From NCBI RefSeq assembly GCF_003334255.1, contig NZ_QOWU01000125.1: a stretch of 3,229 nucleotides of DNA. The stretch is one strand, 5' to 3'. Shown here in pieces: positions 1 through 3,229 of this stretch. Each line of letters starts with the position of its first letter. Position 1 is the first letter of the stretch. A program made the position numbers. Source of the stretch: Escherichia coli (GTDB lineage: Bacteria > Pseudomonadota > Gammaproteobacteria > Enterobacterales > Enterobacteriaceae).

Positions 1-3000
1 ACCTTCATCGCAGCACCTTCCTGTTTTTATGCCCCATGAAAAAAAACGGCAGGCAAAACTCCTGTGCCTGCCGTCATACTTCATGTCACCTTCAGCAATT
101 AAAACTCGAAGTTCACACCAACGTTCCAGGAGGCATCCCCATCACTGAATGCCACGCCTGCTTTCGCTGCGGTCTGCTCGTTGAAGCGGTAACCCACACC
201 CACTGCCAGTGCCTGCTGGTCGCTGTAACCACCAACCGCTGCCGTGGCGTTGAATTTACCCACACTGTACGGCTGGAACAGACCTGTCAGGGCCGCAGAC
301 TGTGCTGCTGCACGCTTCATTTCCTTGTGGTTTTCATTAATCTGGCGCTGCTGGCTGTCCAGACGTGCTGAATGTTGCTGCAGCGTACGGGTATTGGCTG
401 CAATCGCCTTGCTGTTTTTCTCAATGGATTGCGTGTTACGGGTGACACGGCCATCAATGGCACCAACTGCTGCATCAATACGGTCAGTACGACCAGACAG
501 GGCCACCAGACCATCGTTAACAGAAATGGTGTTCTTTGCACCTTCTGCACGGGTCAGGGTGCCATCAGAACTCACACCAACCAGTGTGCGGGATTCGACT
601 TTTGCAGCTGTTGCAGCAGCCGCAGCATCAATCTTGTCGGTACGCGTGGTCAGTTCACCAAGATTTTTCTTCTGCGCTTCAAGCTCGCCTTTCTGAGCAT
701 CAAGCTTGCCTTTCTGAGCTTCAAGCTCATTCGCAACAATGGTGGAGTTGGCGGACTCCCATGCCAGATAGCGCTGCAAAGATACGCGTTCTTTTATTTC
801 ATTCGGTGTTACAGCCACATTTCCATACTCATCCAGGCCGACGTTGGTTTCCATCTGCTGGATTGCTGAAACGCGGTTGTACAGGTCACGGATATTCTGT
901 TCTGTCAGGAGGTTTGTCTTAATATCATCAGTTTTCCCTGATGCCGCAGCCTTCATGAAATCATGAACTTCTTTATCATAAACAGTAAATGTTGTTGAGC
1001 CGTCTGCGGAGGTAATTGTAACATTACCATTGCCATCTATTTTACTGAGAAGTGGAATCGGCTTATTTCGCTCTTTTTCCACATCACCTAAGCCACCCCA
1101 ATCAATATGTGCCGTTTTATTATCTGGGTTATAATATACTTTATAAATACTCCCAGCGCCGTTCTGAGCATTTAAAGCAGAATAAGATTGCTCAGCAGCC
1201 ATAATATCAAAGCTAACCCCAAACAAAACACCTGCCATTGCCGCAGACAAAACAGCCTTTGTAAATTTCTTGCTCATGTGGTATACCCTATAAAATTATC
1301 TGTATACAAATAAAACAGTTCAACATCGGATATATAAAGAAAATCTGATGTCTCGCCGCTATCATGAGCTTACTCCTGAAGAAATTCCGAATTTTAATAT
1401 GAAGTTTTTCGGAATTTCCTTACTATAACGTCGGTGATATCACGTTCGCGAAGGGATATCCGCATTACGACTGGCCTGCCACTTATGCTGTCTCTTTATT
1501 CATCAACAATTTGTATACGGTTACATATTTAATTGTGAAGTTAGTCACAAAAAGAAGAAAGTCAAATAATCAAATTGTGCTTAACTGTTTACATCAGCAC
1601 AATCTGATGACCATTGAAGGACGCACTAAATTATTTTCAGCAATCCCTCAGCCTACGAAAATTCTGTATTTGATAATTGTTTTATTTGCTCTCTTTTTAT
1701 GCAGCCATTCTGTTGCTTATAAAAAAGCACCACTATCCGCGCCCTCATCTCAATATCTTTGTCGCCGGATAAAAATAACTATCAACCACAAGTATCATGC
1801 TCTCGGGGAGCGCGCACTCCCCCACTTTTTTTATCCCTGACAGGGTCAGGAGGCCGTTGCATCTCCTTTAATTATCATTGCCAGATTATTTCCTCGACCT
1901 GAGTATTCTTTATTTAGCCATAGCTTTGTAGCAAGGGGCTGGAGCGCCCCTCTTTTTTTCACCTGTCAGCCATGCCGACCTTATACGCCAGTATAGCTTC
2001 CGCATCACCCAGCGCTTCAATCTCTTTTTTCATCGTGCGCTGTCTGACATGAATTTCCAGACCTTTGGTAAACATCGCCTGCTCTGCAGCAGCACTCAGA
2101 GCAATCAGTGTTTCAGCGTCCATCGGTACGTCATTATTGTCCGCATCCGTCCAGAAAAACTGCTCCGGCAGTTTCCCCGCTTTCGCTGCCGCCACCGACG
2201 GCTCAAGACGCGTCTGCGTTGACTTCCCGTAGTCCCATTTACGCCCATTGTGCTCAAACGTGTAGTTCGCCGCTTCCATCGCATTACGCCAGGCATTAAT
2301 TTCCACCTTTTTCCGTTCACGTGACTGTGTTAAAGCTTCCGGCGGTTCTTCATACGGCTTAATCTCTCCATACCTGCCGGAAATTAAATCAGTAAAAAGT
2401 TGTCGTCCGTGATTTTCCGGATCATTTTCTGACGCAGTAAAAGGAAACCATTGCTCACCAATTTTTATCTCACAGGAAATATTACCCAATCGAGTATATA
2501 CCGCCCCCCTGACGTCTGTTACAACAATCGCCATTCTTCCCCCTGTATTACACAATGCGTTGAAATAACGTTAAGTTTGTTGTCATGGTCTGCTCATCGT
2601 ATCCGGGAGCACCCAGACTTAAAGCAGACACAAAAGCCCGCCATGTCCCCGGGATACTGTTTCCGGCATTATGAACAATCGAGAACGTGGGCGAATACGT
2701 GACGCCAACGCGGTAAAGAATCGCCACTTCAGTAATTTTTTCGCCATTGATATTCTCTTTAATTGCACTTTCACTTTCGAGAGTCGATATCGAACCAAAT
2801 AAGAAAGAGCCAACCGCATATTTTTCTGTGGATACATTACCATTCCTGCCTGCTGCCCCCTGCGGCCCTGCCGGACCACGAGGGCCTGCCGGGCCGGTTT
2901 TCCCCTGCGGCCCCGCGGGACCTGTTGCTCCGGGTTCGCCTTTGTCCCCTTTTGGCCCCGGGGCACCTTTGGCTCCGGCTGCACCAGCCGGTCCCTGAGG

Positions 3001-3229
3001 GCCTGCGGGCCCCACTGCACCAGGTGCGCCAGGTTCCCCCCTGTCCCCCTTCGGTCCGGGGACTGCTGCCCGGGTTGCTGCCTCTTCTGCCTTCGTTTTT
3101 GCTGCCTGCACTTCTGCCATTACCGCTTTCACAGCCTTTGGGGTTGCCGCTTTTGTTTCATCATCGCTGTTGGTATCGCTGCTCAGCTGTACAACACCTT
3201 TCTGTGATGTGCTGGCATCCGGAACACTG

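What the first reader, a model, noticed from the sequence alone, without database searches (positions are those of the whole stretch)
2548..3229. Tail fibre combining Stf-type repeats, a long collagen-like triple-helix segment and a short C-terminal domain
Twenty-five uninterrupted Gly-X-Y triplets predict a collagen-like trimeric shaft of about 75 residues, followed by a roughly 94-aa C-terminal domain that is the likely receptor-binding tip. The repetitive GC-rich DNA is recombinogenic and may allow modular exchange of the tip domain and shaft-length variation, that is, host-range switching.
Basis: partly seen in the sequence, partly recalled or inferred. Interest (0 to 1): 0.35.

Follow-up and report, generated by a model that had tools for sequence, protein, structure and literature searches.

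The report
Collagen-shafted prophage side tail fibre
This is the 3' end of the side tail fibre gene of the E. coli prophage P-EibA, a collagen-like shaft ending in a small tip domain; the protein is already catalogued, and relatives show that the tip, the end of the shaft and part of the chaperone gene are swapped together between phages.

Summary
On the minus strand, 2548-3229 is the 3' end of a tail fibre gene. It encodes one Phage_fiber_2 repeat, 25 uninterrupted Gly-X-Y triplets (2833-3057) and a 94-aa C-terminal domain (2551-2832).

The window is 99.7% identical to prophage P-EibA of E. coli ECOR-9. This protein (ORF-401, 479 aa, collagen lengths 117 and 75 aa) is already listed as an "EPclC" prophage collagen-like protein by Ghosh et al. 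2012.

- Only 8 of 5,426 complete E. coli genomes carry the whole segment.
- In 31 others, near-identity stops inside the collagen DNA, at 2964, 3012 or 3019.
- The swapped block is about 2304-2963: the last 44 collagen residues, the tip, and the first 77 codons of the downstream DUF4376 gene (a domain family with experimentally shown fibre chaperones).
- The Sepvirinae phage GER2 carries the same tip on a different fibre with 37 triplets.
- Relatives show in-frame triplet indels at 5-10 nt direct repeats.

Not shown: receptor binding by the tip, its fold (both AlphaFold2 attempts failed), and whether collagen DNA is a recombination hotspot or just tolerates junctions. Exact repeats in this gene are at most 14 nt.

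Verdict: real, ordinary, already known.

The parts
2548..3229 (-). 3' part (226 codons plus stop) of the side tail fibre gene, P-EibA 'ORF-401-like', EPclC type. The gene continues beyond 3229.
   Evidence: Open frame and translation. 99.7% identical to AF151091.1, where it is annotated orf-401. Listed in Ghosh 2012 Table 3.
3088..3213 (-). Single Phage_fiber_2 (Pf2) repeat, residues 6-47 of the fragment.
   Evidence: Pfam PF03406, E 2.7e-16. The same stretch matches Mu tail fibre protein S in PDB 5yvq at E 6e-4.
3058..3087 (-). Short Ala/Lys/Glu-rich linker ([11 protein letters not shown]) between Pf2 and the collagen run.
   Evidence: Sequence read directly.
2833..3057 (-). Col2: 25 uninterrupted Gly-X-Y triplets (75 aa). 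About 21 nm if triple-helical at 0.286 nm per residue. Pro occupies 11 of 25 X positions.
   Evidence: count, shuffles, composition; Pfam Collagen; GC 0.73-0.74.
2551..2832 (-). 94-aa C-terminal tip domain of the 'LFQR' family. Invariant residues are G8, G30, P61, G62, W64 and L-F-Q-R 89-92. Predicted all-beta. No Pfam or PDB sequence match.
   Evidence: family alignment A3; no PDB or Pfam hit; two real clusters among 1.84 billion representatives; AF2 pLDDT 54.
2304..2963 (-). Exchange cassette relative to fibres in other E. coli prophages: the last ~44 residues of Col2, the tip, the stop, a 13-nt spacer, and the first 77 codons of ORF-191A.
   Evidence: blastn of the window against L003-L005 and of the L002 gene segment against L003-L006 and L008. 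Megablast end points in 31 genomes.
1975..3021 (-). Block shared at 93% identity with the 668-aa fibre and DUF4376 gene of the Sepvirinae phage GER2. Its left end is again inside Col2.
1959..2534 (-). ORF-191A, 191 aa, predicted DUF4376-type tail fibre chaperone. The N-terminal ~77 residues (2304-2534) co-vary with the tip type. The C-terminal DUF4376 domain (residues 71-181, about 1992-2324) is conserved across tip types.
   Evidence: Pfam PF14301, E 1.7e-20. PHROG 1141. Covariation. DUF4376 chaperones shown experimentally in Alteromonas phages (PMC7289586, PMC10579305).

Best explanation
The region is the distal half of the side tail fibre (lambda Stf homologue) of a lambdoid prophage of the P-EibA type. 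Three chains are expected to form a collagen triple helix about 21 nm long. This shaft carries a small all-beta trimeric tip, which is the most likely host-surface-binding end.

The gene immediately downstream encodes a DUF4376 protein. Its N-terminal ~77 residues are specific for the tip type, and it most likely acts as the fibre's folding chaperone or cap.

In evolution, [distal collagen + tip + chaperone N-terminus] behaves as one cassette that is swapped between phages. The left junctions fall in collagen-coding DNA. The right junction falls at the start of the conserved DUF4376 domain. The collagen run gains and loses whole triplets at short direct repeats.

Shown here: the sequence architecture, the identity with P-EibA ORF-401, the mosaic boundaries, the tip-chaperone covariation and the triplet-number variation.

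Inferred: trimeric triple-helix formation (by analogy with EPclA, which was shown experimentally), receptor binding by the tip, chaperone function, and any effect on host range.
For: Identity and context.
- The window is 99.7% identical to AF151091.1. There the gene follows J and lom and precedes orf-191A and eibA.
- The same order, tape measure-L-K-I-J-Lom-fibre-DUF4376-YadA-like, is seen in a complete genome.

Domains.
- phage_tail_N, Collagen, Phage_fiber_2, Collagen.
- PDB 9e7m_Ta ('Tail fiber protein') matches N-terminal residues 1-91.

Literature.
- Ghosh 2012 lists ECOR-9 ORF-401 as EPclC, 479 aa, collagen 117 and 75 aa. The authors showed experimentally that the related EPclA is a trimer with a collagen CD signature and a trimerising C-terminal domain.
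- phi24B gp61 is described as a collagen-like shaft with a small C-terminal globular domain.

Mosaicism.
- 8 of 5,426 genomes have the full 682 bp. In 31 others the match ends at 2964, 3012 or 3019.
- The cassette spans about 2304-2963.
- Five fibres near-identical over ~330 residues diverge inside Col2 into different tips.
- GER2 has the same tip (97.9%) on a different fibre with 37 triplets.

Indels. In-frame 4- and 5-triplet differences in Col2 are flanked by GGTGCAG, CTGGT or G(C/T)CCGGCAGG repeats.

Covariation. Tip identity against chaperone N-terminus identity gives Spearman 0.77. Tip against chaperone C-terminus gives -0.33. A tip 52% identical pairs with an N-terminus 64% identical.

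DUF4376 proteins are demonstrated fibre chaperones in Alteromonas phages V22 and A5.
Against: - No structure could be obtained for the tip. The monomer model had pLDDT 54 and a linker-joined trimer had pLDDT 40.
- There is no experimental or homology link between the LFQR tip and any receptor.
- Exact repeats in this gene are at most 14 nt, too short for efficient RecA-type homologous exchange. So the collagen DNA of this copy is not evidently a hotspot.
- The right-hand junction is not in collagen.
- The pairwise identities in the covariation test are not independent and come from only 7 loci.
Confidence: 0.8

Rival explanations
1. Junctions cluster in the collagen segment because of selection, not because the DNA is recombinogenic. 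A periodic, register-free triple helix tolerates any in-frame fusion or triplet indel, so only those recombinants survive. The underlying exchange uses the long, near-identical flanks (the fibre 5' part and the DUF4376/eib region) or rare illegitimate events.
For: - The longest exact repeat in the gene is 14 nt, and internal repeats are 60-80% identical.
- The flanks are 91-99% identical over 340-1,030 nt between prophages.
- The right junction lies in non-collagen DNA exactly at a domain boundary, which is the pattern expected from functional filtering.
Against: - Indels sit precisely between 5-10 nt direct repeats.
- Relatives have true 108-nt tandem collagen repeats whose copy number varies, giving 36, 48, 60 or 72 triplets. 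Both point to slippage or unequal crossing-over in the DNA itself.
- A frameshifted variant (P0010) shows that out-of-frame events in this DNA also occur.
Confidence: 0.4
2. The 94-aa domain is mainly a trimerisation and registration nucleus for the collagen helix, like PfC of EPclA or a procollagen C-propeptide. The actual adhesin is something else, for example the DUF4376 protein staying on the tip as a cap.
For: - PfC of EPclA was shown to be a trimerisation module.
- DUF4376 chaperones were proposed to act as transient fibre caps.
- The invariant LFQR, PGxW and G motifs suggest a conserved structural core.
Against: - Tip subtypes are only 17-52% identical on near-identical shafts. That is the diversity expected of a receptor-binding surface rather than of a pure folding nucleus.
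- The distal C-terminal DUF4376 domain of the partner protein is conserved across tip types, unlike an adhesin.
- The two roles are not mutually exclusive.
Confidence: 0.2
3. The gene is a decaying remnant of a defective prophage with no present function.
For: - Neighbouring DNA in one genome holds truncated tail fibre assembly and DUF4376 pseudogenes and an IS1.
- A frameshifted variant of the gene exists (P0010).
Against: - The frame is intact and 99.6-100% identical in 8 genomes.
- Full-length intact genes of 459-480 aa occur next to complete tail modules.
- Phages deposited as complete genomes, with K-12 MG1655 or E. coli C recorded as host (PhiR5_2 and others), carry the same fibre family.
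Confidence: 0.05
4. Tip switching is done by a site-specific invertase, as in the Mu Gin, P1 Cin and e14 Pin fibre segments.
For: In those systems too, the fibre C-terminus and the assembly gene form the variable unit (established knowledge).
Against: - No inverted repeats flank 2304-2963. The only inverted pairs found are short, 73-93% matches elsewhere.
- There is no alternative tip in opposite orientation and no invertase gene in the window or in L001/L002.
Confidence: 0.02

Closest known systems
EPclC-type E. coli prophage collagen-like proteins (Ghosh et al. 2012, PLoS One 7:e37872)
   Same: It is this protein. Table 3 lists ECOR-9 ORF-401 of P-EibA as 479 aa, type EPclC, with collagen domains of 117 and 75 aa. 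The architecture is PfN - Col - Pf2 - Col - a non-PfC C-terminus.
   Different: The paper characterised EPclA and EPclB experimentally, not EPclC. It did not define the LFQR tip family, the cassette boundaries or the link to the DUF4376 gene.
Bacteriophage lambda side tail fibre Stf with Tfa
   Same: Same N-terminal phage_tail_N domain, the same Pf2 repeat, and the same genomic place after J and lom. The GenBank record calls it 'similar to lambda ORF-401'.
   Different: The shaft is collagen. The C-terminal domain is unrelated. The downstream gene is a DUF4376 protein, not a Caudo_TAP-type Tfa.
Lateral fibre gp61 of Stx phage phi24B, ORF67 of Sp5, and the GER2 fibre
   Same: Long collagen-like shaft interrupted by a Pf2 or coiled-coil element, ending in a small C-terminal globular domain. 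The GER2 fibre carries the very same tip at 97.9% identity.
   Different: Different N-terminal anchoring region (the GER2 fibre N-terminus differs from the P-EibA one) and longer collagen runs (37 triplets in GER2 against 25).
Alteromonas phage V22 and A5 tail fibre plus DUF4376 chaperone modules (PMC7289586, PMC10579305)
   Same: The fibre gene is followed by a chaperone with a C-terminal DUF4376 domain. The whole host-recognition module is shared between morphologically distinct phages.
   Different: Those fibres have no collagen shaft and no sequence similarity to this tip. Chaperone function here is inferred only.
Collagen-like repeats flanking the host-range region VR2 of Streptococcus thermophilus phage antireceptors (Duplessis and Moineau 2001)
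   Same: Collagen-like repeats separate domains of a host-specificity protein. The Guarani virophage paper (PMC7242381) states that collagen-like repeats have been suggested as phage recombination hotspots.
   Different: Gram-positive siphophage Tal/antireceptor proteins, unrelated in sequence. The cassette there does not include a chaperone gene.

Membership tests
EPclC prophage collagen-like protein (Ghosh 2012) | Two collagen (Gly-X-Y)n domains, Pfam PF01391 | tested here: met
   The window has a 25-triplet run. Full-length relatives have an upstream block of 19+13 or 19+20 triplets. Ghosh lists 117 and 75 aa.
EPclC prophage collagen-like protein (Ghosh 2012) | Pf2 (PF03406) repeat between the two collagen domains | tested here: met
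   PF03406, E 2.7e-16, directly upstream of Col2.
EPclC prophage collagen-like protein (Ghosh 2012) | C-terminal region with no homology to PfC (PF06820) | tested here: met
   No Pfam family matches the tip or any of the 17 family members, even at E 0.1.
EPclC prophage collagen-like protein (Ghosh 2012) | PfN (PF08400) N-terminal domain | tested here: met
   This lies outside the window. In the 99.6%-identical relative L007, PF08400 matches at E 2e-42.
Lambda Stf side tail fibre | N-terminal phage_tail_N domain and a gene position downstream of J and lom | tested here: met
Lambda Stf side tail fibre | Caudo_TAP-type Tfa assembly gene immediately downstream | tested here: not met
   The downstream protein matches only DUF4376 (PF14301). 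There is no Caudo_TAP match.
Collagen triple helix | Long uninterrupted Gly-X-Y repeat rich in Pro | tested here: met
   25 triplets, with Pro at 11 of 25 X positions and 4 of 25 Y positions. The maximum in shuffles was 6.
Collagen triple helix | Trimeric triple-helical conformation | not testable with these tools
   Shown by CD, AUC and MALLS for EPclA only. No multimer predictor was available, and the linker-joined trimer model failed.
DUF4376 tail fibre chaperones (V22 gp27 type) | C-terminal DUF4376 domain, encoded directly downstream of the fibre gene | tested here: met
   PF14301 covers residues 71-181 of 191. The ATG lies 13 nt after the fibre stop codon.
DUF4376 tail fibre chaperones (V22 gp27 type) | Required for production of an active fibre | not testable with these tools
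   There is only indirect support: the N-terminus co-varies with the tip.
Receptor-binding tip domain | Binds a host surface receptor | not testable with these tools
   No homologue with a known receptor and no usable model. The role is inferred from position, hypervariability and cassette behaviour.

The most novel reading that the evidence does not exclude
The 'LFQR' tips (81-103 aa, so far only in Escherichia and Citrobacter, always directly after collagen) may be an undescribed fold family of trimeric receptor-binding domains. Each would be matched to the N-terminal ~77-110 residues of a DUF4376 chaperone. As I recall (not checked here), in Caudo_TAP-type Tfa proteins it is the C-terminal part that is fibre-specific, so this layout would be reversed. 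The fibre-tip/chaperone cassette, with a YadA-like eib adhesin gene always just downstream, would then move as a unit between lambdoid prophages and Sepvirinae phages.
Probability: 0.35. Interest if true: 0.4.

Novelty: already known. Interest (0 to 1): 0.2.

Why it matters
The practical value is modest. The work gives exact coordinates for a natural swap unit: distal collagen, tip and chaperone N-terminus. That could guide engineering of host range in lambdoid or Stx-type phages and in tailocins.

It also flags a small, structurally uncharacterised tip family that rides next to the eib immunoglobulin-binding adhesin genes.

It does not open a new question. Collagen-shafted prophage fibres, their modular recombination and DUF4376 chaperones are all already described.

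Tried and rejected
1. AlphaFold2 on the 94-aa tip with a 17-sequence family alignment gave mean pLDDT 53.8. Three copies joined by (GGGGS)6 linkers, used as a stand-in for a trimer, gave pLDDT 40.5. Both models are unusable, so no fold search was run.
2. Sequence searches for the tip found very little.
   - Pfam gave nothing.
   - A PDB profile search gave nothing at E 10.
   - An exhaustive phmmer search over 1.84 billion representatives gave two real clusters plus four weak hits to unrelated repeat proteins, which I regard as spurious.
3. A PDB sequence search with ORF-191A gave only chance-level hits. NCBIfam gave nothing for it.
4. Invertase-type switching was rejected because no flanking inverted repeats exist.
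5. Rfam at E 1 gave no hits in the window.
6. Sandt and Hill 2000 (PMC97405) is not held in the library. Anything about P-EibA induction therefore rests on the GenBank record and on memory.
7. The plus-strand ORFs over the collagen DNA (2747-2998, 2451-2702) and the alternative minus frame (2619-3020) are by-products of the periodic GC-rich sequence. The alternative frame appears only as a frameshifted database variant (P0010).
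Full report
**What is there**

All three genes in the window read on the minus strand:
- eibA at 99-1277.
- A 191-codon gene at 1959-2534.
- An open frame that enters from beyond 3229 and stops at a TAA at 2548-2550.

The 226 residues of that last frame contain four parts:
- one Phage_fiber_2 repeat (PF03406, E 2.7e-16, residues 6-47);
- a short Ala/Lys/Glu linker;
- exactly 25 uninterrupted Gly-X-Y triplets (residues 58-132, window 2833-3057);
- a 94-residue non-collagen tail (window 2551-2832).

Shuffling the residues 10,000 times never gave a run longer than 6 triplets. GC reaches 0.73-0.74 over the collagen DNA against 0.41-0.49 nearby. Two wordings need adjusting. 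There is one Stf-type repeat, not several. The DNA is periodic and GC-rich but not truly repetitive: Tandem Repeats Finder sees only two-copy 9-10 nt units, internal repeats are 60-80% identical, and the longest exact repeat in the whole gene is 14 nt.

**Identity**

The window is 99.7% identical over its full length to GenBank AF151091.1, prophage P-EibA of E. coli ECOR-9. In that record the frame is 'ORF-401-like protein, similar to bacteriophage lambda ORF-401'. It follows J and lom and precedes orf-191A and eibA.

In a complete genome the same block sits at the end of a lambdoid tail module: tape measure, L, C40 peptidase, tail assembly protein, J, Lom, fibre, DUF4376 protein, YadA-like protein.

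A 99.6%-identical full-length relative (480 aa) has phage_tail_N (PF08400), Collagen, Phage_fiber_2 and Collagen. Its first 91 residues match a solved 'Tail fiber protein' chain, PDB 9e7m_Ta.

**Already in the literature**

Ghosh et al. 2012 (PMC3368898) list 'ECOR-9, ORF-401, EPclC, P-EibA, 479 aa, collagen lengths 117, 75'. They define EPclC by a C-terminus with no homology to the PfC domain. For the related EPclA they showed trimers, a collagen CD spectrum and a trimerising C-terminal domain. They also attributed the modular architectures to recombination between prophages.

A collagen-like shaft ending in a small globular domain is also described for phi24B gp61. Sp5 ORF67 is likewise described as having multiple collagen-like domains, a tail-fibre C-terminus domain and the Pf2 repeat. 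The virophage paper PMC7242381 states that collagen-like repeats have been suggested as phage recombination hotspots, and PMC5601072 cites Duplessis and Moineau 2001 for such repeats in S. thermophilus phage antireceptors.

**Testing the exchange hypothesis**

Genome survey. Of 5,426 complete E. coli genomes, 39 match the 682-bp region. Only 8 match all of it, at 99.6-100% identity. In the other 31 the match (97.7-99.6%) begins at window 2964 (24 genomes), 3012 (1) or 3019 (6). All three positions lie inside the collagen DNA at 2833-3057.

Protein alignment. Five fibres are near-identical over their first ~330 residues. They diverge inside Col2 and end in different C-terminal domains.

DNA comparison. 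Against these relatives the window's private block is about 2304-2963. It holds the last ~44 collagen residues, the tip, the stop codon, a 13-nt spacer and the first 77 codons of ORF-191A. Near-identity resumes at the start of the conserved DUF4376 domain, at '...INAWRN...'.

Transfer between different phage types. tblastn finds the same tip at 97.9% identity in phage GER2 (genus Oslovirus, subfamily Sepvirinae). GER2's 668-aa fibre has a different N-terminus and a Col2 of 37 triplets. Homology with the window runs from 1975 to 3021, so the left end is again within Col2. The Sepvirinae are, to my knowledge, the short-tailed Stx-type phages; that point was not tested here.

Further junction. 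Outside the window, homology with the PhiR5_2 fibre starts at nt 532 of the P-EibA gene, which by the run coordinates lies in the first collagen block.

**Shaft-length variation**

In the loci examined, Col2 has 25, 30, 31, 33, 37 or 38 triplets. Several differences are in-frame indels bounded by short direct repeats:
- L004 lacks five triplets that L008 has, between G(C/T)CCGGCAGG repeats.
- L006 lacks four triplets relative to L003, between GGTGCAG repeats.
- L005 lacks five triplets relative to L003, between CTGGT repeats.

The first collagen block also has a 7-triplet indel.

In the common relatives with an 81-aa tip, the distal collagen consists of tandem 36-residue (108-nt) units. Its length peaks at 36, 48, 60 and 72 triplets. 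So length variation is real in the family, and for this very tip it is 25 versus 37 triplets.

**The tip**

The 94-aa domain has no Pfam match and no PDB sequence match. An exhaustive search of 1.84 billion representatives found two real clusters, this tip itself and a tip 52% identical to it, plus four weak hits to unrelated repeat proteins that I regard as spurious.

Searches among fibre homologues reveal a wider family of 81-103-aa tips. Subtypes are 17-52% identical to this one. They are found only in Escherichia and Citrobacter and always directly follow collagen. Invariant residues are G8, G30, P61, G62, W64 and a terminal L-F-Q-R. Other fibres with the same N-terminal part carry unrelated tips of 72-76 aa (L003, L005).

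AlphaFold2 predicts an all-beta domain, but with pLDDT 54. A linker-joined trimer did worse, at pLDDT 40. The fold remains unknown.

**The partner gene**

ORF-191A has a C-terminal DUF4376 domain (PF14301, E 1.7e-20). DUF4376 proteins encoded just downstream of fibre genes are experimentally shown chaperones in Alteromonas phages V22 and A5. There the fibre-plus-chaperone module is likewise shared between morphologically distinct phages.

Here the N-terminal ~77-110 residues assort strictly with tip type, while the DUF4376 domain is 73-98% identical across all types:

| Comparison across 7 loci | Spearman correlation |
|---|---|
| Tip identity vs chaperone N-terminus identity | 0.77 |
| Tip identity vs chaperone C-terminus identity | -0.33 |

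The pairs are not independent. A tip 52% identical to this one is partnered with an N-terminus 64% identical.

**Mechanism and its limits**

The best reading has four parts:
- a trimeric collagen shaft of about 21 nm (75 residues at 0.286 nm each, from established collagen geometry);
- a small trimeric tip that nucleates chain registration and binds the host surface;
- a cognate DUF4376 chaperone;
- evolutionary exchange of [distal shaft + tip + chaperone N-terminus] as one cassette.

Shown here: the architecture, the identity with P-EibA ORF-401, the cassette boundaries, the covariation and the length variation.

Inferred: triple-helix formation for this protein, receptor binding, chaperone function and host-range consequences.

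Whether collagen DNA is mechanistically recombinogenic is open. In this copy exact repeats are at most 14 nt, and the long near-identical flanks could supply the homology for exchange. A register-free shaft would also tolerate any in-frame joint, so selection alone could explain why junctions cluster there. The indels at short direct repeats and the 108-nt tandem units in relatives do point to slippage or unequal crossing-over as well. An invertase-type switch is excluded because no flanking inverted repeats exist.

**Verdict**

The feature is real and correctly read, and its exchange hypothesis survives its own test. However, the protein, its class and the idea are all published. Novelty is 'already known' and interest is low (0.2). 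The incremental points are the exact cassette boundaries, the LFQR tip family with no known fold, and the pairing of each tip with the N-terminus of a DUF4376 chaperone.

Noticed in passing
window 670-728 (within eibA, minus strand): A 21-nt tandem repeat, 2.8 copies at 86% match. It encodes heptads LEAQKGK / LDAQKGE / LEAQKKN in the coiled-coil stalk of the EibA trimeric autotransporter. Copy number may vary between eib alleles.
   Followed up: no
window 1278-1958: A 680-bp AT-rich intergenic region (GC 0.31-0.42 over most of it) lies between ORF-191A and eibA. It has two strong terminator-like hairpins with T-runs on the plus strand (1805-1822 and 1934-1951), opposite to all three genes. Rfam finds nothing there. 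PhiR5_2 has two small plus-strand ORFs annotated in the equivalent region.
   Followed up: partly
window 1959-2030 (3' end of ORF-191A); loci L003-L009: The last ~20 residues of the DUF4376 protein come in at least two main versions...EIEALGDAEAILAYKVGMADR and ...ELEKLTSADEILAYRVGWAQE. They assort independently of the N-terminal type, for example L004 against L008. GER2 and L010 carry further variants. This marks another recombination junction near the gene's end.
   Followed up: no
proteins P0022 and similar (616-688 aa fibres with an 81-aa LFQR tip): The distal collagen is built of tandem 36-residue (12-triplet, 108-nt) units. Run lengths peak at 36, 48, 60 and 72 triplets, and protein lengths step by 3 aa. 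This is a clear copy-number polymorphism of the shaft.
   Followed up: partly
protein P0010 (435 aa); window minus-strand alternative frame 2619-3020: P0010 appears to be a frameshifted version of this fibre gene. Its 91-residue non-collagen tail matches the alternative minus-strand frame of the window (compare). Most database hits to the tip are 'partial' proteins that start in collagen, which suggests assemblies often break there.
   Followed up: no
L002 (AF151091.1) fibre residues ~206-211, outside the window: The 2000 GenBank record reads GEAGPR-PQG where the four other relatives aligned read GEAGPPGPQG. This breaks the Gly-X-Y register by one residue. It may be an old sequencing error, or a real lesion in ECOR-9.
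   Followed up: no
whole window compared with databases: The window is not the AF151091 record itself (99.7% identity). The fibre part is 100% identical to strains DETEC-S792 and UCPROB-001/002, while the best full-length genome matches are 97.6%. The eibA and intergenic part therefore diverges more than the fibre part.
   Followed up: no
loci L001-L005, L007-L010: A YadA-like (Eib-type) adhesin gene lies downstream of the fibre and DUF4376 pair in lambdoid prophages, in the Sepvirinae phage GER2 and in PhiR5_2. It seems to travel with the host-recognition module. L006 lacks it.
   Followed up: partly
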